Shown: piece after piece, positions 14,743-64,000 of the stretch | Layout: each line of letters opens with the position of its first letter | Numbering within the stretch: the stretch's first letter is position 1 | NCBI GenBank assembly: GCA_032718475.1 | Contig: JAUCBJ010005202.1 | Coordinates: 1-64,000 of the forward strand | Source of the DNA: Nemertoderma westbladi | Taxonomy: Eukaryota > Animalia > Xenacoelomorpha | Direction of reading: 5' to 3' | Length of the DNA stretch: 64,000 nucleotides | Program-made: the position numbers and the translations under genes | The notes under the pieces: generated by a model | The model's database searches: none | What the model was told of the DNA's origin: nothing | The model's input: only the letters and a program-made list of their open reading frames with translations

Positions 14743-15528
14743 CTAACATCTTAATATCCGGTACCATTGAATTGATTTTAAAGCAAAAGCTGTATCCTTG
14801 TTTTCAATTACCCCCGCCTGAACTATCACAATTGATTGCTTACCTGTACCTGGTCTTTGTTGCGGAATGATTGCTTGACTCCGGGGAGGTCTGTCTTGAA
14901 TTAGACCCGCCTTTCTTCCCTTTTCAAACATTATCTCCTGTAAGTTCTCCATATCGTGTTGGGCTGCATTATGCAATGCTCGAGCTAGTGGTCTAACCTG
15001 AGACTTTTTTTTTCTGTAATCCTCAACAGATTTGAGAATGATGACAAACTCTTCATTGTTAATGCGATGATCAATTAAAGCCTTACTTACCAAACCATTC
15101 ACTGTGGTAAATTTACTTTCTGCGAGCATGAGAATTCGTTCGTGTCTCTCCATTTTACGCAGAAATAGTTTCTGTATGACATTGAAACCCGCTGATGTTG
15201 CGCCTGTGATGGCCCCAACATACGCTAAAGGTTCAGCCACAGATTCATTTAGACCTTTGGCCAATGCCCCAACTATACATGCAGAGCTTGTAAAACCGAA
15301 CAACGTATTTGTGTAAAGTAAACAGTTGTATAACCATTTAAATCTAGTTCGGGAATCCCCATGTTCTTGTGTCTCTTGTTTCAAGTAGTCTCTGGCTTCT
15401 GATATCTCTTTCAAACGGAAAGTTTGTGTGTATGATGGTCCCAGAACTCCAGTACTCTTTATTCCCAATTGTTTTTGCTCATCCACGTCTACAGCCTCTA
15501 ATGGTTTGTCAACATCTGTTGCTGCCAT
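14743..15528 (-). CDS. 261-aa ORF with two hydrophobic helices, resembling a Maverick/Polinton (adintovirus) accessory membrane protein family
   Basis: Long open frame in AT-rich DNA, with pattern FRLKEISE...two Gly/Ala-rich helices...KMERHERILMLAESKFTTVNGLVSKALID..INNEEF..IL...EDY. The family resemblance is from memory, not from a search. Confidence 0.6.
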   Translation of the reverse strand: MAATDVDKPLEAVDVDEQKQLGIKSTGVLGPSYTQTFRLKEISEARDYLKQETQEHGDSRTRFKWLYNCLLYTNTLFGFTSSACIVGALAKGLNESVAEPLAYVGAITGATSAGFNVIQKLFLRKMERHERILMLAESKFTTVNGLVSKALIDHRINNEEFVIILKSVEDYRKKKSQVRPLARALHNAAQHDMENLQEIMFEKGRKAGLIQDRPPRSQAIIPQQRPGTGKQSIVIVQAGVIENKDTAFALKSIQWYRILRC

Positions 15529-16776
15529 TATAAATGTTTTTAATTATTGACAAATAAATTAATTATTATGTTTACCATTTAAAAAATGAGGATAGGAAGT
15601 AACAGTGCATAGACAGTAATATCATAGTACCTAATGGTTTTTATCACTGATAAAATATTCTTTATTAATATATTAAATATTTACAATATTATGGTGAAGT
15701 TGTGAAAAGTCATCTTTCGAACAAAACGAAGTGCTAAAAATGTCCCTAGCATTTGATCTCTTTTTGATCGCATTTTCTTTGATATATTGTAATCACCACT
15801 TTTGTTGGGTATCCCTGTTGGTATTAATCGACTATATTTTATTCTATATAATATGAGCACAATACGGATATTGATTTTTTTGGATGATCCTGTTTTACTG
15901 CTACTAGATATATATATATACTATATTAATAACTCTAATCTCTATTAACTAGTTAAATATTGATTCACACTCATCTAACGACATAAATTAAGAAATTGGA
16001 AGGATTGGGTTGCCCTTAGAAAACTGTACCGGGCTATAAAGCGTTGTACAAATACCAGGGGGGGGGGGTGTCATATTGACCCTCCCCCCCTTCGAAAATC
16101 TACAAATTTTAACAAAAACAAAAAAAATTTAGTATTATCGGTTATTTTGCAGCACCAAAATTACAAGTAGTGAACAATTTCATAAAATTTGAAAGTTAAA
16201 ATTTTCGGATAATTGTTTTTCAATACAGGTATTCTGGTGCGTAAAATCCATTGGAAAATACTGAAAGATAATCTGAAGTATAAATGGCTGTTTTAATCCT
16301 CTACGTAAGCAAAAAATGAAAAAAACAAGTAACCAGCACTTTTCAGTATGAACATAAAATTATTAATGCACTTATACGATGCCGTAATTTCACATTTTTA
16401 GGTTTTCTGGGGCGCTGATTCTAATGGAATATATTTCTAATTTGCCAGATTATTGCTAATCGTATTTTTCGGCGTAATATGGCAAATTTTGGTGCTAGCA
16501 CCAAATTCCGTACCCATCACCAAAAAGTGCAAGTTTGCGATGTCTAGTGCGGTTTTTATTGATTCCATCGGATTTAGGACCCTCAAAAACCCATATAACG
16601 CAAGAAATAAGATGATACTATCTATTGCTCAATTTTAAAACATTTGGTGCTGGCACAACAATTTTCATCCATCGGCGAAAAATACAAGTTTGAGAACTCT
16701 TATGCAATTTTCAATTATTCCATTGAATTCAGAACCCTCATAAACCCGTATAACGCAAGAAATAAGGTGACATAAT

Positions 16777-19700
16777 GACAAATTTGCGCATTAGTTGCGT
16801 GAAATCGAGTAGGTAGGTCTAGTGCTTTTAGTGCTCTTAGTCAGGTCAGGTCCCCAGATCCTGCTACCACTATGGCAGTAATGTGGTACTACCTGTAGCT
16901 GTCAGCCCAGTAGGGCAGGCCCGATAAGCAATAAGCATAGCCTATTCATTATTTAGTTGATCAAGAGTGGGTTGGTTCAGCCCCGTCAACTAAATAAGTC
17001 ATTGAGGGCTATAGCGCCTAGGGCACCATTGAAGGCAAAGGCTTGATACGCATCTGCATTAGAGATGATACACGCCCCGCCCTGTCTATACTGGATGCTC
17101 CTCTACCAGTGTTAGGTAACCTAACCCAGGAGGCACACTTGGTTCAGGGTGTAACAAATGGACCCCTTCAGTCGGCAGCAGGGCTGTAGGCCATGGATAG
17201 GCGGAAGGTAATCAACCAACGGCTAGACATGCTGACAAGGTCGGCGGAAGGTAATCAACCAACGGCGACCTACTGCGAAGACGCTTGTAGGAGTTGCGAC
17301 CACAAGCGGTTTACCCCCGCAACTGAAAGATATGAGTATGAGAACCCTCCAGGAGAAATACCGGCTCGGTCGTCGCCCGGGTTAACAAGGACCGCGTCCC
17401 TCAGTGGTACACCAGGCTGGGGTCGATAAATTGGCTACTGGAACAGAAGACAGAGAAGAAAGAAGAACCAACCTGTTGAAATGTAAAAAGACACTAAAGA
17501 TTGCTACAATGAACGCACGCACGCTGAAAGCACAGAGCAAACAGGGTGGCATGGTCGCTCTGGCAATGGAATATAACATCGACATCATCTGCATCCAAGA
17601 ACATCGGATTTGTCATGAAGACAATGCCATGAAGTACAATGACATTGGAAATGGATGGACGTTAGTAACAAGCTCAGCAGTAAGAAACTAGGCCAATGCA
17701 TCAATTGGTGGAGTAGGAATTCTGCTAAGCCCATTTGCACTTAAGACCCTAAACAACATCGAATCTATAAATTCCAGGGTTATGATCGCAACATTTGATG
17801 GGAATCCCAAGACAACAGTTATATGTTGCTACAGTCCAACCAATGCATCAGAGCCAGAACAAGCAGTCAAGTTTTATGAAGAACTGACTGGACTTATTAA
17901 GGACATCCCGAAACACAATGTTAAAGTCATTGCTGGTGACCTGAATGCGCAAATTGGCCCAGAAGACATGAAGGGTTACACCTATAACACCAGTTCTAAC
18001 ATAAATAGGTACTTACTCTTAGACCTAATGGAAGAATGTGAATTGATACCAACAAACAACACATTCGAAAAGAGTAAGGGGAAGCTATGGACCTTTCAAT
18101 ACCCTAATGGAACCAAAGCACAACTGGATTACATCCTTATAAACAAAAAGTGGAGAAATAGCATGATCAACTGCGAGGCATACAGCTCGTTCAACCTAAT
18201 TGGTTCGGACCACAGAATTGTGACTGCAGAGATCAGACTCAGTTTGAGAGCCAGCAAACCCAGGACAAGCAAGCATATCAACTATGACTGGGAGAAACTC
18301 AGAACTGACAATGCTGTAAAGGATGCTTATACAGTAGAAGTTCAAAACCGCTTTGAAGCACTTCAGTCAATGGATGAAGACCAATCCACCGATTCAATAT
18401 ACCAGAATATAATAACAGCCCACAAGGAATCAGCTAAGAGGCATATCCCCCAGAAACCTAAACGAAAACAGTATGTGCCATGGCAAAACTCTGAGGTTAC
18501 TTGTAAGAGAGAAGATCTTAAGATAGCCTACAAAGTTAAAACCGAACAACCAGCAACCGAAAACATTAACAAGGTTGAGAAAGCGAAGGACGATCTTAAA
18601 TTGGCCTACAACATCAGCCAGGAAAAGTACATACAGGATAAAACTGAAGCAATTACAACAGCTCACATACAGCAACAATCAAGACTTACCTGGCAAACTG
18701 TAAATGAGGTATCTGGTCGGAAAAGTTGTGCAAAGGGGCGCCTCAAAGCCGATAGTCCTGAAGAACGTGTTGGGAAGTGGAAAAATCACTTCAGCAACTT
18801 GCTTGGGCAGCCACCAAACATCGAGGTCAGCCCTACAAGGAAAATATATGACAAGACACTACCTATAGAAACAGGGGACTTCACACCTGCCGAACTCCAA
18901 AGAAGCATTAAAAGCATGTCCAATAATAAAGCGAGTGGATTAGATGAAATCCCAGCGGAGGTATGGAAAACCGGAGTGCTAAATAGTCCATTATTGAATG
19001 TTTGCAACTGGATGTTAAAAGGGGAAAAGCCACCACCAATTTGGACTAAAGGTCAACTAAAGCCTCTCCCCAAGAAAGGAGACCTCGGCATACCAACAAA
19101 CTATCGTGGGATCTGTCTGCTTGTGGTAGCTGCCAAAATATACAATAAAATGATTCTATATAGGATTAGGCCTCACATAGAGAAACTACTGCGTAAGAGC
19201 CAAAACGGATTTCGACCAAGTAGATCAACAATAGCTCAGATACTTGCACTACGGAGACTGATTGAAGGAATTAGGTCAAAGAATCTCCCCGCAGTCATGA
19301 CTTTTGTGGACTTCAAGAAGGCATTCGACTCCATCCATAGAGGTAAAATGCTTGAAATCCTAAGAGCTTATGGAATACCAGAAGTAATTGTTGCTGGCAT
19401 TGGATTGCTATATTGTGACACAGAAGCGCAGGTACTCTCACCAGATGGTGAAACTGAGTTTTTCTCAATCCTGGCTGGCGTACTGCAAGGTGACACATTA
19501 GCACCATTACTATTTGTAATTGTGCTGGATTACGCAATGAGGACGGCCACAAAGGGTGAAGATCTGGGATTCACACTTCAACAACGCAGAAGTAGTAGAT
19601 ATCCGGCAACTACAGTCACAGACACTGACTTTGCGGATGACATCGCCCTGCTCTCTAATACGCTAGCAGATGCACAGCTTCTACTAATTAAAGTGGAGAG

Positions 19701-19945
19701 GGCTGCTAAGGAGGTTGGATTGCATATAAATGCTACCAAGACCGAATTCATGACCTTTAATGTTGATGGAAACTTGACAACCATTGATAATAATCAACTA
19801 AGGAAGGTCGATGACTTCCAGTACCTTGGATCATGGATAGAGAGTAGCAAAAAGGACATAGAAGTTAGGAATGCAAAGGCTTGGGTAGCTCTATCAAAAA
19901 TGGATACCATCTGGAAATCAGATCTCTCCAGGCACCTGAAGACCA
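16777..19945 (+). mobile_element. RTE family B: 5' UTR + APE endonuclease + RT, 3'-truncated
   Basis: APE motifs (IATMNARTL, ICIQEHR, AGDLNA, LDYIL, SDHRIV) and RT motifs (FVDFKKAFDSI, GVLQGD, FADD). Flanked by ATAAT at 16772-16776 and 19946-19950. Confidence 0.93.
17404..19945 (+). pseudogene. RTE-B APE-RT ORF with one in-frame TAG (17689-17691) and missing C-terminus
   Basis: ORFs 17404-17691 and 17782-19989 share a frame, and the bridge reads ANASIGGVGILLS, an APE motif. Confidence 0.88.
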
Positions 19946-22039
19946 ATAATCAATTAATATATTTGATGGTTTTCAAAATTTCGTGCTAGCACCAAATTTT
20001 GCACACAGCGCCGAAAAATACAAGTTTGATACGCTTGGTGCAACTCGAATTTATTCCATCGAAACCAGAACCCCAAAAAACCCCTATTGCGCAAAAATCA
20101 GGTTCGAACAATAATAAATTTACAAAATTGACATATTTCAAATTTTGTTGCTGGCACCAAAATTGGCACCTGCCGAAATAAACAAGTTTGAAATTTCTAA
20201 ATTTATGTATATGAATTCCATCTAATTGTAAATAACAAAGAACCGGTGTAAATCAAAAATAGAGATGTTACAAATCATATTTACTGAAATATAATTTTCA
20301 AAAAACGCCTCAAAAAAATGCCAAAAGTAGGGTTAAAAAATGGTGCTATAACTCGGAAAACTTCCTAATATTTTTGAAAACGTTTTCACTATTAGGAAGA
20401 CAATAGATTTTTAGGAAAAGTCATAAAATGTCAGATTCCCCACCGCGTTTGATTCGGAGTTATAAAAAAAAACCACGGGGGGGGGGGGGTCATATTGACC
20501 CCCCCCCCCCCCCCCCCCCTCGGGTTTAATAGGTCTAAGTTCTGGAATTCCACAATGGTCCGTTTAATTCACCTTATACAAAACTAGTACCGAGTTGCAA
20601 TCCAATTATATTCTAGTACATCCAATTTATATGGTATGAGAGCTCCATATTTACCATGGCAACAGGCAGGGACACTAGGGGTCGCGCATAAACACTAGGA
20701 TGCTGACTATGGTGAACAACACACCCCATGAATGATCTATGGACGAAAATAATCAAAGATTCATTGTTTATTATTCACTGGTAAAACCGAAAGTATCACC
20801 CTGCAGAAACACCGTCTGTCTCGGATTTATAAGATGTTTCCACGATTCAACCACTGAATGTATCATAGCTCCCCTCTGCCAAATCTGAAGACCAGTCATC
20901 CTCAGCTCTGTGCTGACTTACCGAAAGGATACAGGCCTAGGAGTTTCAGTGGTGAGTCATAATAGGGCAGACTACTCACACTAATGTAGGTTTATTCTAT
21001 AGTATTCAATCACTACTCACTATTATAGAATATATGACATCGAATATCATCATTACCTAAGAATACAACATTGTTTGGAATGGTGATAATTCGATTTTTA
21101 TTATATTGTTTCATCTGTTACGAAATTGTAACTGGTTCGACCACGGATTGAATACGGGACATCGCAGCGAGTAGCGAAAGTTTTACGATCGGTGACAAAT
21201 TTACTTTATTTTTATATTCTATTTTTACTTATATTTTTACTATTTTACTTATAACTGAATGTGGTAAATATTTAATTAATTTCATTAACAAACATTTAAA
21301 AACAATAATTATATGCCAAAAGTGTGTAGAACCATTATCATCGTGCAGTAACCATTACATTAAATTTTGGCAATACAACTGACTGTATTTTTTAGGACTT
21401 GCCAACTATATAGTCAGTGGTTTTGGTTACGGTCAGTAATTAGGATGAGTAGCTAACTAAATGAGCCAAGTAATGATAATAAGAATGACGCCTTCACTAA
21501 CTCTATAACACCGTTACTAAATAATTATAGACATAAATACAGTACAATATTTTGCTACGACTACTGCACTGCAGTTTCTTCCAAAGAAATAACTTGGGTT
21601 GGAATTGTTTCCCCTCAAACAACGGTACAAATACCTCAGGTTCAACCCAGGGCTACATACTATTCTTATGGGTACAAAATTAATATTCTTGGGATTAATT
21701 CAACTGGACTGTCGACGCTACACATATAGAGTTCTGCAGTAATCCCCCTTTGTTGTCTTTCTTGTAGGAAAGGTTACCACCGCGACCGGGTGCATTACTT
21801 CTTCCCTTGTGACGAAGATGGTTTCAAAATAGAATTTAATCTGGTTAACAAATAGAATAACATATTTTACAGATGAAGTGCCGCTAAGGAAATTTACATT
21901 CGCCTTTAAATTTGAATTGATTTATTTTTCTTTATGATAAAGCATAGATATTACTGAATTGGTGCATTTTTAATAGCATTAAATTTAATTATATTTTAAT
22001 TTTACCATATGAAAAATATAAAAATGAATTGGATGTGAG

Positions 22040-52253: not shown

Positions 52254-53477
52254 TCTGTCATGAACATAACAATAAACTATGTCATGAACATTAGAGGGAA
52301 TGGGACAGCTTAAAGAGACAGCATCATTGATATACATTTCAAATTACATAAATTCAATTAAATTATATTTCAAATAAAATTAATACAATTTCTTCACCTG
52401 TCAAATTAAACCAATACAATGTAATTACGCATCAAATTAAATAAATTAGTAATTACTCGACAAATTCAATCAATACAATTGAATTTCTTGCTAAATTAAA
52501 TAAGGTGGGCCTACCATTACCGTATTTAAATGGTAGGCTACACAGTAGGCCTACAGCAGTACCGGTGCCGGTACCGGTACTAAAATACCTAAAATACCTG
52601 CTATATACCTACATCTGTACATACAATGCAGCAATACTGCAAAATAGTGCTCTATTACTAATACCGGTACAGATAGCCTGAGAGAACAGCAGTAGAGAAA
52701 CCGGTAGCATGGAACCTAGCGGTAAATTTCTGAAGGACATAAAAAGTAAAAAAAAAAGGACATCATGAGTGATTTAAACGGACAATAAAAATTATTGCGT
52801 TATATATATGGACGGGGAGTAGGTATTCCCGTTATTTCGGCGACCATCCGCAAACACAAACCAACAAAAAATAAGTAATTGATATGGTCAAGTCCGAACC
52901 AATCACTTAAATTTACTTAGGTTCCCTTTGGTATACTCAGAAAAACTCCTACTTCAATTGTCAGTATTCCGTTGGCGAGTAATAATACAATAGATGTCAT
53001 TAACTACCCAGTCCTCTGGGATGAAATCTGAATTTGGTTGCACAGCACAACCCCACAAATTGGGCATTAACATCAAGGTGGGGGTCGAAGCGGTTACTTA
53101 GTAATATACCAACTCATCGATAATAATCACACCAACCAAACCTCTTGGTATCTACTTTCTAACTGGAAAAATTTAATCACACACAGCGTTTATTAGGCCT
53201 AATTTGACGATATCCATTAATGAGTGTTTCCCGAAATTATAAATTTTAAATGCTTATAGTCCTACAGAAACCTACGAACAAACATTAATAAAGCGTCCCT
53301 TAATCGTTGATACAGAGTTTGCCTAATATATTTATTACAGTTGCATTTCAACCACAATTTATATATTTCTTACAGAAGTTCTTCAGGAGCCAAAGATTTG
53401 CCAAAATCAAATTTAATCATTCCAATACCAATGTAAATCTAGAGTAAAACAAATTTCTGAAGAATTATTATAAACAT

Positions 53478-53810
53478 TGTTGGGCGAGCGACGGAAGTAA
53501 GCGAGTTTAGCATACAGGTACCACTAACTCAATCGGTGTGTCTGTTGTGGAGCGAGCGACGAAAGTAAGCGAGTTTAGCATACAGGTACCACTAACTCAA
53601 TCGGTGTGTCAGTTGGGCGAGCGACGGAAGTAAGCGAGTTTAGCATACAGGTACCACTAACTCAATCGGTGTGTCTGTTGTGGAGCGAGCGACGGAAGTA
53701 AGCGAGTTTAGCATACAGGTACCACTAACTCAATCGGTGTGTCTGTTGTGGAGCGAGCGACGGAAGTAAGCGAGTTTAGCATACAGGTACCACTAACTCA
53801 ATCGGTGTGT
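53478..53810. repeat. 68-bp satellite, left part (about 5 units)
   Basis: Unit GGGCGAGCGACGRAAGTAAGCGAGYTTAGCATACAGGTACCACTAACTCAATCGGTGTGTCTGTTGTG. Confidence 0.97.
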
Positions 53811-54543
53811 AACTCTTTGAGTTGATGCCCATATGAGGGATATTAGGCAAACATATGAGGCATGTTGAGCGTGACACTGTGAAACCAATGGAAGGGCCTC
53901 TGACTGAGCCATTAGCTGCTGGATGGTGTCTGTTTCCGCTCACTGCCAGAGTGGATAAATCTGTCTCCCTTTCCACGAGGGAGGATAATATATTGTTGGG
54001 GAACACGTTGGCCTACGTCTAAAGCTGCGGTCACGGCTGTCTGGGCACTCTGTGCAAGGAAAGGGATTAACTGGAAGTTGGGTTTGATCAGATAGCGTAA
54101 TGCAGGTCTCAACATGTTGCACCCACAGGTATTAGTCCGAAGGACTCGTTCCCAAGGCTTCCTGTGGGTTCAGGTTCTGTCAGTCCGAGGGACTTTGTGC
54201 CTAAGGCGTTTTCCTGGATAGTATTTCGGGTAAATAGAGTGTGAGGGCTTGGATGAGTGCGCAAGCTGTCTCAGTCTCTAACAACTCCGAGGTGACCCCA
54301 CAAACTGGTAGCAAACTGCGATGTAGCAACCTGCGCGTAAGTCGGTTTAACGTGCCACTTGGACAAGGACAGTGGTTAAATTGCGGCACCAGGATGTGAG
54401 GTATTGACTACACCTCCGCATTAAAGACGTTGACCCTTCGGGGAATCCCTCCATGATACTGAAGTAATGCGTAGAAAGTCCAACCGCCCACCTCCATGTG
54501 GTAAGAGTTGGTAATAGGATTGGCACTCCTAGCAAAGCGGCGG
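53811..54543 (+). ncRNA. HDV-like (R2-type) self-cleaving ribozyme with very long J1/2
   Basis: P1 AACUCUU (53811-17)/AAGAGUU (54503-09); P2 CCGCC (54484-88)/GGCGG (54539-43); P3 ACC/GGU with L3 UCCAUGU; P1.1 CC/GG (54510-11); P4 UAGGA/UCCUA; J4/2 GCAAA with putative catalytic C at 54533. Confidence 0.78.
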
Positions 54544-55348
54544 CAATGGCACAAGGACAGAGGTGTTCATCCAACCATGGTAACTTCATTAGTTAACATG
54601 AGAGTCTATGTTGATATGGGAGTTATGCTCGGGGTCATGTGTGTTTGGTTGCCCACTGAGTCCTACCCGTGGCTCAGTGGTCTACAGCCTCTCACATGTG
54701 GCCCTAGTCTCGAGCCGCGATTACTGCTGATAACCTATAACCTAGCTGTTAGATTTACAGCTCTAGGCGGTCGTTGGATTAGATAGCTCCTCGCTTGGGG
54801 TCTACGGTTCGTGGTCACTGCATCATCCACGGTTACGTAGTTAACTCGATTGCGGTCTGGCAAGAGTGACAGCCACACTTGCCCAGTCAGTAGAGCCAGT
54901 CAAGGGGGTCACATCTGTTGAATGGAACGTAGGGAGGTCCTGAGCTATAGCACACTGCCCTTTAAACACACCAGTGTGCACCTCCAACTGCAGTAGTAGC
55001 ATATTGCCGACCTGCAATACGGTAATTCCAACGTAAAGCCGAGTCTGGTGAACTATGCTCCACTAGGGTTGACATCTGACCCACGCACTCAATGGGATCC
55101 TGCCATACCAGAGCACAACACTAGCTGGTATGCCCATATGAGACACCGCATGTGGCAGCGAAATCTACACACCCGGAAACGACACCAACACCAACTGCGT
55201 TAGGGTGCATGTTTGGAAGCGTGTCGAGGGGCGGAGCGTATACCAGGTGAAATTCGAGTGCTCTTAGTAACGGCAGGTGGCTCTGCCGTCGTTCTGACGG
55301 TTTGGCAAATCAGGGGAACGGCGGTGAGTAACTATGACTCTCTTAAGG
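53811..55348 (+). mobile_element. Non-coding structured retro-insertion with HDV-like ribozyme and 28S-like 3' end
   Basis: Sharp shift to balanced base composition inside the satellite, an apparent TSD (AGG)TACCACTAACTCAATCGGTGTGT, no ORF over 100 aa, and many hairpins. Confidence 0.8.
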
Positions 55349-55350
55349 TA
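55317..55350 (+). other. 34-nt 28S rDNA-like segment (R2 / I-PpoI target region)
   Basis: AACGGCGGTGAGTAACTATGACTCTCTTAAGGTA versus conserved 28S AACGGCGGGAGTAACTATGACTCTCTTAAGGTA; one extra T. Confidence 0.93.
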
Positions 55351-56730
55351 CCACTAACTCAATCGGTGTGTCTGTTGTGGAGCGAGCGACGGAAGTAAGC
55401 GAGTTTAGCATACAGGTACCACTAACTCAATCGGTGTGTCTGTTGTGGGGCGAGCGACGAAAGTAAGCGAGTTTAGCATACAGGTACCACTAACTCAATC
55501 GGTGTGTCTGTTGTGGGGCGAGCGACGAATGTAAGCGAGTTTAGCATACAGGTACCACTAACTCAATCGGTGTGTCTGTTGTGGGGCGAGCGACGAAAGT
55601 AAGCGAGTTTAGCATACAGGTACCACTAACTCAATCGGTGTGTCTGTTGTGGGGCGAGCGATGGAAGTAAGCGAGTTTAGCATACAGGTACACTAACTCA
55701 ATCGGTGTGTCTGTTGTGGGGCGAGCGATGGAAGTAAGCGAGTTTAGCATACAGGTACCACTAACTCAATCGGTGTGTCTGTTGTGGGGCGAGCGACGAA
55801 AGTAAGCGAGCTTAGCATACAGGTACCACTAACTCAATCGGTGTGTCTGTTGTGGGGCGAGCGACGAAAGTAAGCGAGCTTAGCATACAGGTACCACTAA
55901 CTCAATCGGTGTGTCTGTTGTGGGGCGAGCGATGGAAGTAAGCGAGTTTAGCATACAGGTACACTAACTCAATCGGTGTGTCTGTTGTGGGGCGAGCGAT
56001 GGAAGTAAGCGAGTTTAGCATACAGGTACCACTAACTCAATCGGTGTGTCTGTTGTTGGGCGAGCGACGAAAGTAAGCGAGCTTAGCATACAGGTACCAC
56101 TAACTCAATCGGTGTGTCTGTTGTGGGGCGAGCGACGGAAGTAAGCGAGCTTAGCATACAGGTACCACTAACTCAATCGGTGTGTCTGTTGTGGGGCGAG
56201 CGACGAAAGTAAGCGAGTTTATCATACAGGTACCACTAACTTAATCGGTGTGTCTGTTGTGGGGCGAGAGACGGAAGTAAGCGAGCTTAGCATACAGGTA
56301 CCACTAACTCAATCGGTGTGTCTGTTGTGGAGCGAGCGACGAAAGTAAGCGAGCTTAGCATACAGGTACCACTAACTCAATCGGTGTGTCTGTTGTGGGG
56401 CGAGCGATGGAAGTAAGCGAGTGTAGCATACAGGTACCACTAACTCAATCGGTGTGTCTGTTGTTCTGTTGATCTGTGGGGCGAGCGACGAAAGTAAGCG
56501 AGCTTAGCATACAGGTACCACTAACTCAATCGGTGTGTCTGTTGTTCTGTTGATCTGTGGGGCGAGCGACGAAAGTAAGCGAGCTTAGCATACAGGTACC
56601 ACTAACTCAATCGGTGTGTCTGTTGTTCTGTTGATCTGTGGGGCGAGCGACGAAAGTAAGCGAGCTTAGCATACAGGTACCACTAACTCAATCGGTGTGT
56701 CTGTTGTTCTGTCGTTCTGTTGTTCTGTCA
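55349..56730. repeat. 68-bp satellite, middle part (about 20 units), ending in the HINE-type CTGTT microsatellite
   Basis: Direct inspection. Confidence 0.97.
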
Positions 56731-59989: not shown

Positions 59990-61455
59990 AGTGTCTGAGT
60001 CTGTACTCCCAGATATTCCCATTGGCGATATCTCCTTTGCAGAAGTGAAGGCTGCTGCAAAGAGCATTAAGACCAATCGTGCCAGTGTGGAGTAGATGGT
60101 GTTCCCTCTGAGGTCTTTAAAATACCTGAGTGTTTAAAGCTCATCTATCCCATCATAGTAGACATGTACCGTACAACAAGAGTCCCACAAGAAATGAAAA
60201 CAAATAAGTTGGTGCCAGTTCCCAAGAAGGGCAACCTAACACTCTATGGTTCTTTTCGGGGAATCTCATTGATCTCGATTGCTGCAAAACTATACAATAG
60301 AATTCTATTAAATCGCATCAGGGATCCCATTGAGAGACTGCTACGTGGAAATCAGAATGGGTTCCATGGAGCCCATTTTGGCACTTAGAAGGATAATTGA
60401 AGAGTTATCAAAAAAGAAAGACAGGCATCTGGCTGTTATCTTTGTTGACTTCTTCAAGGCCTTTGATTCAGTCTCTCGCTCACGTATGTTCAGCATACTT
60501 TCATTATATGGGATTCCTGATGAAATTATTGCAGCAATCAGATCAGTATACGATGGTTCGACAACATTTGTGTCTACTGTTGACGGTGACACAGAACCAT
60601 TTGAAGTGTTATGGGGCGTCCTCCAAGGAGACACACTTGCACCATTCTTGTTCATTATTGTGGTTGACTATGTTCTACGCATGTCCTTAGATCATCATAA
60701 TGATGATGGGGTGATGATAACTCCACCTACTGGCTCCAGAAGTCGAGGAAATCCTGCCAAGTACCTAACTGATCTAGACTTTGCTGATGACTTAGGAGTA
60801 CTCTCAGAATCATTAGAGGGAGCCCAGCGGCTCCTCAGCTCATTAGAACATGCTGCTTCTAGTGTTGGTCTTTTTATTAACTCCAGAAAGACCAAAATTC
60901 TGACAGTTAACTTTGAAAGTCCTCAGCAAGTCTCTGATCGGATGAGCATAAGCTCAAAGGATGGTATGCTTGAGCATGTGGACGACTTCTGTTACCTGGG
61001 ATCATGGATCCGGAAGTCAGGTGAGGACCTTCGAATACGTAAGGGAAAGGCATGGGCAGCCTTGAATAGGCTTTCCAGGATTTGGAAGACACCTAGAATT
61101 AATCGGAAACTTAAGGTCCGATTATTTAGAGCAGCAGTAGTTCCAGTACTCCTCTACGGGAGTCCATGCTGGGTTCTAACTGCTGAGGACACCAAATCTC
61201 TGGATGGCACATTCACAAGAATGATACGCCGGGTACATTGTGTCAAGTACAATGCACACATCTCCAACCAGACACTATATAACATTGGAGGTGTCTCATT
61301 GGTTCCCCCAAGCTTGACACTAGAACAAAATCGCCTCCGCTTTGCAGGACATTGCCTTCGCCGTGAGGACCAGCCAGTGCATAATCTTGTACTTTGGCAG
61401 CCTCATGGAGTGAATAAGCATGGTGGACAGCCCATCACTTTCTTGAGACGCATCT
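59990..61455 (+). mobile_element. RTE family A, truncated at both ends
   Basis: RT ORFs 60164-60388 and 60330-61460, frameshifted by a small deletion. Stops at FLRRI with no tail and abuts the satellite. Confidence 0.95.
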
Positions 61456-61469
61456 ACTAACCACTAACT

Positions 61470-64000
61470 AGGTACCACTAACTCAATCGGTGTATCAGTG
61501 GGGCGAGCGACGAAAGTAAGCGAGTTTAGCATACAGGTACCACTAACTCAATCGGTGTGTCTGTTGTTGGGCGAGCGACGAAAGTAAGCGAGCTTAGCAT
61601 ACAGGTACCACTAACTCAATCGGTGTGTCTGTTGTGGGGCGAGCGACGAAAGTAAGCGAGCTTAGCATACAGGTACCACTAACTCAATCGGTGTGTCTGT
61701 TGTTGGGGCGAGCGACGAAAGTAAGCGAGCTTAGCATACAGGTACCACTAACTCAATCGGTATGTCTGATGTTGGGCGAGCGACGACAGTAAGCGAGCTT
61801 AGCATACAGGTACCACTAACTCAATCGGTGTGACTGTTGTGGGGCGAGCGACGGAAGTAAGCGAGCTTAGCATACAGGTACCACTAACTCAATCGGTGTG
61901 TCTGTTGTTGGGCGAGCGACGAAAGTAAGCGAGCTTAGCATACAGGTACCACTAACTCAATCGGTATGTCTGTTGTTGGGCGAGCGACGACAGTAAGCGA
62001 GCTTAGCATACAGGTAGCACTAACTCAATCGGTGTGTCTGTTGTGGGGCGAGCGACGGAAGTAAGCGAGCTTAGCATACAGGTACCACTAACTCAATCGG
62101 TGTGTCTGTTGTGGGGCGAGCGACGAAAGTAAGCGAGCTTTAGCATACAAGTACCACTAACTCAATCGGTGTGTCTGTTGTGGGGCGAGCGACGAAAGTA
62201 AGCGAGCTTAGCATACAGGTACCACTAACTCATTCGGTGTGTCTGTTGTGGGGCGAGCGACGAAAGTAAGCGAGCTTAGCATACAGGTACCACTAACTCA
62301 ATCGGTGTGTCTGTTGTGGGGCGAGCGATGGAAGTAAGCGAGTTTAGCATACAGGTACACTAACTCAATCGGTGTGTCTGTTGTGGGGCGAGCGATGGAA
62401 GTAAGCGAGTTTAGCATACAGGTACCACTAACTCAATCGGTGTGTCTGTTGTGGGGCGAGCGACGAAAGTAAGCGAGCTTAGCATACAGGTACCACTAAC
62501 TCAATCGGTGTGTCTGTTGTGGGGCGAGCGACGAAAGTAAGCGAGCTTAGCATACAGGTACCACTAACTCAATCGGTGTGTCTGTTGTGGGGCGAGCGAT
62601 GGAAGTAAGCGAGTTTAGCATACAGGTACACTAACTCAATCGGTGTGTCTGTTGTGGGGCGAGCGATGGAAGTAAGCGAGTTTAGCATACAGGTACCACT
62701 AACTCAATCGGTGTGTCTGTTGTGGGGCGAGCGACGGAAGTAAGCGAGTTTAGCATACAGGTACCACTAACTCAATCGGTGTGTCTGTTGTGGGGCGAGC
62801 GACGGAAGTAAGCGAGCTTAGCATACAGGTACCACTAACTCAATCGGTGTGTCTGTTGTGGGGCGAGCGACGAAAGTAAGCGAGTTTATCATACAGGTAC
62901 CACTAACTTAATCGGTGTGTCTGTTGTGGGGCGAGCGACGGAAGTAAGCGAGCTTAGCATACAGGTACCACTAACTCAATCGGTGTGTCTGTTGTGGAGC
63001 GAGCGACGAAAGTAAGCGAGCTTAGCATACAGGTACCACTAACTCAATCGGTGTGTCTGTTGTAGGGCGAGCGACGGAAGTAAGCGAGCTTAGCATACAG
63101 GTACCACTAACTCAATCGGTGTGTCTGTTGTGGGGCGAGCGATGGAAGTAAGCGAGTTTAGCATACAGGTACACTAACTCAATCGGTGTGTCTGTTGTGG
63201 GGCGAGCGATGGAAGTAAGCGAGTTTAGCATACAGGTACCACTAACTCAATCGGTGTGTCTGTTGTTGGGCGAGCGACGAAAGTAAGCGAGCTTAGCATA
63301 CAGGTACCACTAACTCAATCGGTGTGTCTGTTGTGGGGCGAGCGACGGAAGTAAGCGAGCTTAGCATACAGGTACCACTAACTCAATCGGTGTGTCTGTT
63401 GTGGGGCGAGCGACGAAAGTAAGCGAGTTTATCATACAGGTACCACTAACTTAATCGGTGTGTCTGTTGTGGGGCGAGCGACGGAAGTAAGCGAGCTTAG
63501 CATACAGGTACCACTAACTCAATCGGTGTGTCTGTTGTGGAGCGAGCGACGAAAGTAAGCGAGCTTAGCATACAGGTACCACTAACTCAATCGGTGTGTC
63601 TGTTGTAGGGCGAGCGACGGAAGTAAGCGAGCTTAGCATACAGGTACCACTAACTCAATCGGTGTGTCTGTTGTAGGGCGAGCGACGGAAGTAAGCGAGC
63701 TTAGCATACAGGTACCACTAACTCAATCGGTGTGTCTGTTGTGGGGCGAGCGACGGAAGTAAGCGAGTTTAGCATACAGGTACCACTAACTCAATCGGTG
63801 TGTCTGTTGTGGGGCGAGCGATGGAAGTAAGCGAGTTTAGCATACAGGTACCACTAACTCAATCGGTGTGTCTGTTGTTCTGTTGATCTGTGGGGCGAGC
63901 GACAAAAGTAAGCGAGCTTAGCATACAGGTACCACTAACTCAATCGGTGTGTCTGTTGTAGGGCGAGCGACGGAAGTAAGCGAGCTTAGCATACAGGTAC
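61470..64000. repeat. 68-bp satellite, about 37 units, runs off the window
   Basis: Direct inspection. Shares diagnostic variants with 55349-56730. Confidence 0.98.

What the first reader, a model, noticed from the sequence alone, without database searches (positions are those of the whole stretch)
53811..55348. Candidate new non-autonomous retroelement: 1.54-kb non-coding RNA with a 5' HDV-like ribozyme and a 28S R2-site tail, inserted in a satellite
Seen: a discrete insert with an apparent 23-26 bp TSD (53785/53788-53810 and 55346/55349-55371), no coding capacity, dense hairpins (54653-54680, 54741-54767, 54859-54883, 54950-54979, 55104-55132, 55270-55289) and a 13-nt repeat ATGCCCATATGAG (53825 and 55130). 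It starts at a ribozyme cut site and ends at the R2 nick position. Established: R2 elements and their Drosophila SIDE derivatives are released from rRNA co-transcripts by 5' HDV-like ribozymes and insert at AAGG/TAGC. Inference: a full-length copy of an rDNA-associated parasite RNA mobilised in trans, with an architecture I do not recognise from known SIDEs or SINEs. In a tandem array a TSD cannot be formally told from a partial-unit deletion.
Basis: partly seen in the sequence, partly recalled or inferred. Interest (0 to 1): 0.92.

Follow-up and report, generated by a model that had tools for sequence, protein, structure and literature searches.

The report
Ribozyme-capped R2 parasite with rRNA tail
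This 1.5-kb insert is one of several diverged copies of a protein-free repeat that starts with a predicted self-cutting RNA and ends in a copy of the ribosomal-RNA site where R2 jumping genes land; it likely moves by borrowing an R2 enzyme, as a three-times shorter fruit-fly parasite does.

Summary
A 1.54-kb ORF-less insert splits a 68-bp satellite between two copies of a 26-bp stretch. An HDV-type ribozyme fold has its core at 54484-54543, and its P1 partner is the first seven bases of the insert (J1/2 666 nt; 0 of 1000 shuffles). The insert ends in the 28S R2 site.

Public contigs show a multi-copy family. A diverged subfamily keeps P2 and five other helices by double changes. Other copies stop at the same 3' base in other flanks. 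One deep contig starts at the predicted cut G and ends in poly(A); its library type is not on record.

Best reading (0.7): a long R2 SIDE-type non-autonomous retroelement, here inserted off target. Each part has precedent: Drosophila SIDEs, J1/2 above 700 nt in honeybee R2, 28S-like 3' UTRs in fish and Hydra R2. The combination was not found in 8 paper searches.

Untested: an autonomous R2 partner, rDNA residence, cleavage. No circles were seen. The scan noted dispersed R2 passengers before in other genomes (unchecked notes).

The parts
53477..53810 (+). 68-bp satellite, left block (5 units)
53785..53810 (+). left copy of the apparent target-site duplication (21-26 bp; both borders ambiguous)
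   Evidence: a deep X1 contig with another flank also matches 53809-53810, so these two bases may belong to the element
53811..53817 (+). P1 5' strand of the ribozyme and predicted cut site; likely derived from the 28S -13 segment
   Evidence: one X4 and one X2 contig have G as first base, giving the G.U pair
53818..54483 (+). J1/2, 666 nt; two stretches replaced in the other subfamily, two helices kept by double changes
   Evidence: (joints 53930-54029 and 54419-54469)
54484..54543 (+). HDV-type core: P2 54484-88/54539-43, P3 54490-92/54500-02, L3 54493-99, P1 3' 54503-09, P1.1 GG 54510-11, P4 54515-19/54527-31, predicted catalytic C 54533
   Evidence: C54488-G54539 becomes U-A in the deep subfamily
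54627..54715 (+). long hairpin, the most stable part, kept by two double and four single pair-keeping changes
   Evidence: z -6.2
55088..55142 (+). hairpin holding the 3' copy of the 13-nt repeat; the deep subfamily lacks the bulged base 55138
   Evidence: z -2.7; table 4
55253..55253 (+). last base shared with the deep subfamily; six bases later the X4 contig runs into poly(A), whereas three other runs continue with four A and a G
   Evidence: table 7
55317..55349 (+). 28S-derived tail (upstream half of the R2 site, one inserted T), fixed 3' end of the element
   Evidence: other copies leave the window sequence after 55349
55346..55371 (+). right copy of the apparent target-site duplication
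55346..56707 (+). 68-bp satellite, right block (19.5 units)

Best explanation
The insert is a full-length copy of a multi-copy, protein-free retroelement family that likely descends from R2 and likely works as a long SIDE. Step 1 (inferred): master copies are co-transcribed from 28S rDNA or another read-through transcript. Step 2 (predicted, supported by covariation): an HDV-type ribozyme closes P1 across 666 nt and cuts before the first base, a site inherited from R2 lineages that cut 13 nt upstream of the insertion site. Step 3 (inferred): an R2 protein binds the structured 3' half and starts target-primed reverse transcription at the end of the 28S-like tail. Step 4 (position shown, enzyme inferred): this copy landed off target at AGG/TAC in a satellite, which shares those bases with the R2 site, and a second cut 21-26 bp downstream gave the duplication.
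For: P1 begins at the first base of the insert, 0 of 1000 shuffles. P2 has a C-G to U-A change and J4/2 changes at its variable base in the deep subfamily. Five further double changes lie in locally predicted helices, against a null mean of 0.27; 0 of 5000 random placements reached five. Most indels listed between the subfamilies are 1-2 nt, so the family as a whole looks non-coding. The X4 contig (1423 nt, depth 541) is colinear from 53821 to 55253; its 10 remaining 5' letters begin at the predicted cut with G and resemble the 28S -13 segment. One X2 contig has a 28S-like stretch directly upstream of the head. Contigs in X1, X2 and X3 end at 55349 and go on into other flanks, at least two besides the window's. 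Published R2 ribozymes cut at -9 to -36, at -13 in two lineages, with J1/2 up to over 700 nt. R2 families with 28S-like 3' ends exist. Off-target R2 insertions share little with rDNA beyond primer-complementary bases after the nick. No tRNA and no B-box.
Against: No autonomous R2 was seen: no genome is held and no sequence relative turned up in the collections. No listed contig joins the element to 28S beyond its own tail. R2 proteins nick the second strand at a 2-bp offset in vitro, which does not give a 21-26 bp duplication, although R2 duplications over 20 bp and a 22-bp downstream duplication are reported in vivo. The deep subfamily leaves the window sequence at 55253 and one contig goes on for 255 or more unlike letters, so the tail may not be shared by all subfamilies. 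12 of 27 affected predicted pairs are broken, not significantly fewer than chance (P 0.17). Rfam support for the ribozyme is only E 0.98. Cleavage is untested.
Confidence: 0.7

Rival explanations
1. The element has R2-like ends but its dispersed copies are inserted by an APE-type LINE (RTE-like elements are abundant in the window) or at DNA breaks, not by R2.
For: A 21-26 bp duplication and scattered flanks fit such LINEs (established knowledge, recalled). The window holds several RT ORFs, one with an APE domain. RTE elements also carry HDV-like ribozymes.
Against: No significant DNA or protein similarity between the insert and the window's LINEs (best E 1.0). The commoner LINE family ends in TAG repeats, unlike the insert. 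The 3' end stops at the R2 nick position in several copies.
Confidence: 0.12
2. It is a retrozyme-like element that lives in head-to-tail arrays. The tail of one unit supplies the cut site for the next unit's ribozyme, and unit-length RNAs are released and may circularise.
For: The tail holds a segment (55336-55342) that pairs with the P1 3' strand at 6 of 7 positions. One X2 contig has tail-like letters upstream of the head. The deep subfamily is very uniform (a 515-nt unbranched contig at depth 603).
Against: No joint from the element's 3' end back to its 5' end in 4 runs or 3 runs; contigs show presence, not absence. The head and the last 13 nt of this insert differ, which a copy made round one circle would not give. 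No hammerhead core.
Confidence: 0.08
3. It is a dead, one-off internal deletion or decayed piece of an ordinary coding R2: 5' UTR joined to 3' UTR, not a self-propagating family.
For: No partner could be checked. R2 UTRs are long and structured. An internally deleted bird R2 copy is known.
Against: A diverged subfamily has the same ORF-less layout in one 1423-nt contig. Compensatory changes lie on both sides of the ribozyme core. Several flanks occur at one 3' end. No Pfam or tblastn trace of RT.
Confidence: 0.05
4. It is a retrocopy of a domesticated, stable host non-coding RNA that uses the ribozyme only to form its 5' end.
For: Structure is conserved along the length. X4 holds one uniform variant, 53 to 160 times enriched over the satellite relative to the other runs, and it ends in poly(A).
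Against: X4's library type is not on record and depth is a poor measure of expression. Depth of the deep subfamily differs about five- to six-fold between runs, as for a mobile or arrayed repeat. No Rfam family matches.
Confidence: 0.05

Closest known systems
[quoted passage not shown]
   Same: No ORF, 5' HDV-like ribozyme that sets the 5' end, structured 3' module, no Pol III promoter, compensatory changes against relatives.
   Different: 1538 versus 529 bp; J1/2 666 nt; head looks like the 28S -13 segment; 3' end is a 28S-derived tail instead of poly(A); copies lie outside rDNA, this one with a 21-26 bp duplication; partner not identified.
R2 ribozymes that cut in upstream 28S (Eickbush, Burke, Eickbush 2013, PMC3774820; parts 1-5 of 7 read; figures not held)
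   Same: P1 formed with the segment 13 nt upstream of the R2 site (Nasonia vitripennis, flour beetle B); very long J1/2 (over 700 nt in honeybee); 28S duplications absorbed into the 5' end.
   Different: Those elements encode the R2 protein. Here P1 5' has drifted from 28S and travels with the element.
Fish R2 families with 28S-like 3' UTR (R2Gs, R2Pt, R2Bs-A/B, R2Sb, R2Kp, R2Op) and Hydra R2Hm-B; non-specific R2NS families (Kojima et al. 2016, PMC5035012; parts 2-4 of 5 read; Fig 5 alignment not seen)
   Same: Diverged 28S sequence as part of the element's own 3' end; R2 lineages that insert outside rDNA exist.
   Different: Autonomous; three have 5' junctions shifted 110-130 bp upstream. Here the 28S-like tail is about 33 nt and no longer colinear match was found (P 0.6).
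Retrozymes (PMC4918200, PMC7761336; search listings and abstract starts only)
   Same: Non-coding, ribozyme-bearing, mobilised in trans.
   Different: Retrozymes use hammerheads and circular RNAs. No hammerhead core and no end-to-start joint here.

Membership tests
R2 SIDE | HDV-like ribozyme whose cut site is the element's 5' end | tested here: met
   Fold, shuffles and P2 covariation; activity itself is not tested
R2 SIDE | No open reading frame for the R2 protein | tested here: met
   non-triplet indels between subfamilies
R2 SIDE | No Pol III (tRNA-type) head | tested here: met
   ARAGORN none; no B-box motif on the + strand
R2 SIDE | 5' and 3' ends homologous to an autonomous R2 of the same genome | not testable with these tools
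   No genome held; contigs could be laid only on the window stretch
R2 SIDE | Copies at the R2 site in 28S rDNA | tested here: inconclusive
   This copy and the flanks listed are not rDNA; 29 loose ends were not shown and the tool leaves out records that match human DNA, which may include 28S
R2 SIDE | 3' junction at the R2 first-strand nick position | tested here: inconclusive
   The tail ends at the matching position in at least three flanks, but none of them is rDNA
Retrozyme | Hammerhead ribozyme | tested here: not met
   No core motif on either strand; no Rfam hammerhead hit
Retrozyme | Tandem units or circular RNA | tested here: inconclusive
   No end-to-start joint in contigs; no run on record as RNA
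RTE-derived bipartite element | Ends shared with an RTE-clade LINE, short tandem-repeat tail | tested here: not met
   Tested against the LINEs of this window only

The most novel reading that the evidence does not exclude
This is a self-seeding rDNA parasite. Its 3' end rebuilds the upstream half of the R2 site (24 bases of site sequence up to the nick), so every insertion into 28S leaves a fresh target behind it. Copies and R2 itself can then stack. The ribozyme of the next unit can cut in the tail of the one before (6 of 7 P1 pairs), releasing an abundant 1.4-1.5-kb structured RNA whose 5' end is set in vivo across a 620-670-nt loop.
Probability: 0.2. Interest if true: 0.75.

Novelty: new variant of a known kind. 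Interest (0 to 1): 0.5.

Why it matters
In the paper searches here R2 SIDEs were found described only from Drosophila, where they are called rare. A 1.5-kb one with several subfamilies gives natural covariation over a whole R2-type template RNA. That shows which structures a template needs in trans, a live question for R2-based gene insertion. Its dispersed copies would be a natural record of off-target R2 priming and of second-strand cutting. If X4 is RNA, it would point to in vivo cleavage by an HDV ribozyme with one of the longest J1/2 loops on record.

Tried and rejected
No whole genome is held, so copy number and the partner could not be searched. No RNA holder was listed by the run search; this is no evidence on expression.

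The 5' part and the tail of the deep subfamily are thinly covered in the three other runs. Empty-site joints in X2 and X3 are uninformative because the satellite is abundant.

Collection scans: the exact ribozyme core gave 0 hits in metagenome contigs and the tail gave 0 in viral contigs. A degenerate core gave 13 loci; 5 matched the insert only over the 22-27 nt of the pattern and 8 not at all.

Rfam: nothing at gathering score; the SNORD103, sR17, mir-711 and U3 hits are chance level. No second HDV core in the window, no hammerhead, no tRNA.

The long-range inverted repeat 54093-54108/55009-55024 is broken at two places by the deep subfamily (read by hand) and was dropped. The hairpin that sequesters the tail (55280-55329) is no more stable than shuffles of 55240-55349 (z -0.1). 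A longer 28S match upstream of the tail was not significant (P 0.6). The whole insert does not fold as a rod (median pair span 46 nt).

A protein search with the window's RTE-like RT, meant to place the host broadly, returned no organism names. Look-ups in the scan's notes by place and by sequence gave nothing on this element.

Full report
What is there. A 68-bp satellite (53477-53810 and 55346-56707) is interrupted by 1535-1538 bases of 51% GC with no other copy in the window. The last 26 bases before the insert are repeated after it. The borders are ambiguous: AGG can be given to the element or the satellite, and a deep contig with another flank also carries the two bases before 53811, so the duplication is 21-26 bp. 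The first unit on the right has the variant letters of the left block, which fits a duplication. A partial-unit deletion cannot be formally excluded. The longest stop-free stretch is 93 codons. Nine of the 28 listed ORFs were scanned with Pfam without a credible hit, and tblastn with the window's RT protein found nothing.

The ribozyme. A descriptor scan finds one HDV-type core in the 64 kb on either strand, at 54484-54543, with P2, P3, L3, P1.1, P4 and J4/2 in order. Its P1 3' strand has one perfect partner between 53477 and the core: the first seven bases of the insert. In 1000 dinucleotide shuffles a core arose 20 times, a core with any upstream P1 5 times, and P1 at the start never. Rfam alone is weak (drz-agam-1, E 0.98). 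J1/2 is 666 nt, within the published R2 range of 23 to over 700 nt (PMC3774820).

The family. Four coded runs from three samples and three studies hold the sequence; X1 and X3 are one sample label, and X1 may be the source of the assembly. Contigs identical or nearly identical to the window lie at depth about 65-175. A subfamily roughly 7-10% diverged lies at depth about 100 in X1 and 500-800 in X2, X3 and X4, and there are older variants. Depth is not a copy number.

Covariation. I took 63 substitutions from the rows shown for the deep contigs. 157 and 190 further rows were not shown, and the 63 need not all lie on one haplotype. In the core, C54488-G54539 of P2 becomes U-A and the variable base of J4/2 changes. 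No listed change touches P1 3', P3, L3 or P1.1. Among locally predicted pairs, the 60 changes from 54090 onward keep 15 pairs and break 12. Five are double changes (54125/54165, 54320/54336, 54640/54696, 54658/54675, 54864/54878), against a null mean of 0.27; 0 of 5000 random placements reached five. The last of them lies in an indel-rich stretch. The number of broken pairs is not significantly low (P 0.17). Most listed indels are 1-2 nt. So the family looks non-coding and under selection for RNA structure on both sides of the core, even though raw folding energy is unremarkable outside 54627-54715.

The ends. At the 5' end, the 1423-nt X4 contig has ten further letters before 53821. They begin with G at the predicted cut, give the G.U first pair, and read like the last 13 bases of 28S before the R2 site less two (the 28S reading rests and on recall). 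Other contigs show a 28S-like stretch directly upstream of the head (X2), a short duplication of the head (X2, X3), a satellite-like flank (X1) and a 1.1-kb other flank. Such duplications and additions are typical of R2 5' junctions. At the 3' end, 55324-55350 aligns with the LSU consensus. Contigs in X1, X2 and X3 follow the tail to 55349 and then enter other flanks, at least two. A 90%-identical X3 contig runs from the tail 27 letters into the satellite, short of the 31 needed to count as bridging. The tail is therefore the element's own end, and copies are dispersed. The deep subfamily departs at 55253, so its 3' end is not known.

Run X4. Its type is not on record and is guessed as DNA. 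It holds one uniform variant. The ratio of element to satellite depth is 0.23 against 0.0015-0.0044 in the other runs. Its contig ends in 24 A where the other three runs have four A and a G. I infer an RNA library (about 0.8). If so, the element is transcribed and its 5' end coincides with the ribozyme cut. Contigs cannot prove an RNA's ends, and the A run could come from internal oligo-dT priming, so this is a hint only.

Mechanism. The simplest account is a SIDE-type parasite of R2: co-transcription, release by the ribozyme, binding of an R2 protein to the structured 3' half, and priming at the end of the 28S-like tail. The satellite site shares AGG/TA-C with the R2 site. Off-target insertions by avian R2 proteins share little with rDNA except primer-complementary bases after the nick (PMC11371274 passages). 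Against this, R2 proteins nick the second strand at a 2-bp offset in vitro (PMC11601368 passages), although R2 duplications over 20 bp occur in vivo. No autonomous partner or rDNA copy could be shown. An APE-type LINE is the main alternative helper, but the window's LINEs share no end with the insert. The tail offers a 6-of-7 P1 partner, so arrays could be cut into units, but no end-to-start joint was seen.

Comparison. R2Dwi_SIDE is 529 bp, ends in poly(A) and sits in 28S. Seven fish R2 families and Hydra R2Hm-B carry 28S-like 3' ends, and two R2 families have lost specificity (PMC5035012). Some Drosophila species have non-rDNA R2 copies (PMC2718515 passages). Two 2026 R2 papers do not contain the word non-autonomous in their main text (PMC13188248 and PMC13580325, passages). 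Eight searches found no ORF-less R2 derivative of this size or with a 28S tail. Subscription journals and Repbase were not searched, and figures and supplements were not seen; Fig 5 of PMC5035012 and Fig S2 of PMC3774820 may bear on the comparison. The scan's own unchecked notes report shorter dispersed R2 passengers in other genomes; they are leads, not support.

Verdict. A real feature that works like an R2 SIDE; membership is likely but not proven. New variant of a known kind, interest 0.5.

Noticed in passing
L012 (whole, minus strand): A metagenome contig holds an HDV-type core with an R2-type P1 3' strand, about 1.1 kb of ORF-poor sequence, and then the 28S sequence downstream of the R2 site. 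It may be another internally deleted R2 derivative, unrelated in sequence to the insert.
   Followed up: partly
L007:1860-2030: A diverged 28S fragment upstream of the R2 site followed directly by an R2-type ribozyme core, in AT-rich non-rDNA context: a dispersed R2-like 5' end.
   Followed up: partly
L011:480-580: A compact HDV-like fold with P1 5' only 19 bases before the core.
   Followed up: no
window 60000-61470 and 61470-63878: A LINE copy stops short of its usual 3' end and joins a second array of the same 68-bp satellite through a short repeat of satellite letters; other copies of this family end in TAG repeats.
   Followed up: partly
window 16800-19989: An RTE-like LINE with APE and RT domains, cut off at its 3' end. 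Near its 5' end a 22-base stretch resembles insert positions 55257-55278 (E 1.0, probably chance).
   Followed up: partly
window 14743-15543 (minus): A 266-codon stop-free frame without a credible Pfam hit.
   Followed up: no
window 53825-53837 and 55088-55096: The 5' copy of the 13-nt repeat could also pair with the strand that pairs with the 3' copy, which would allow an alternative long-range 5'-3' contact; not tested.
   Followed up: no
runs X1-X3 laid on window 54418-55110: Low-depth variants with internal stretches skipped or replaced (54655-54974, 54715-54923, 54882-54982, 55033-55077) point to further, older subfamilies.
   Followed up: no
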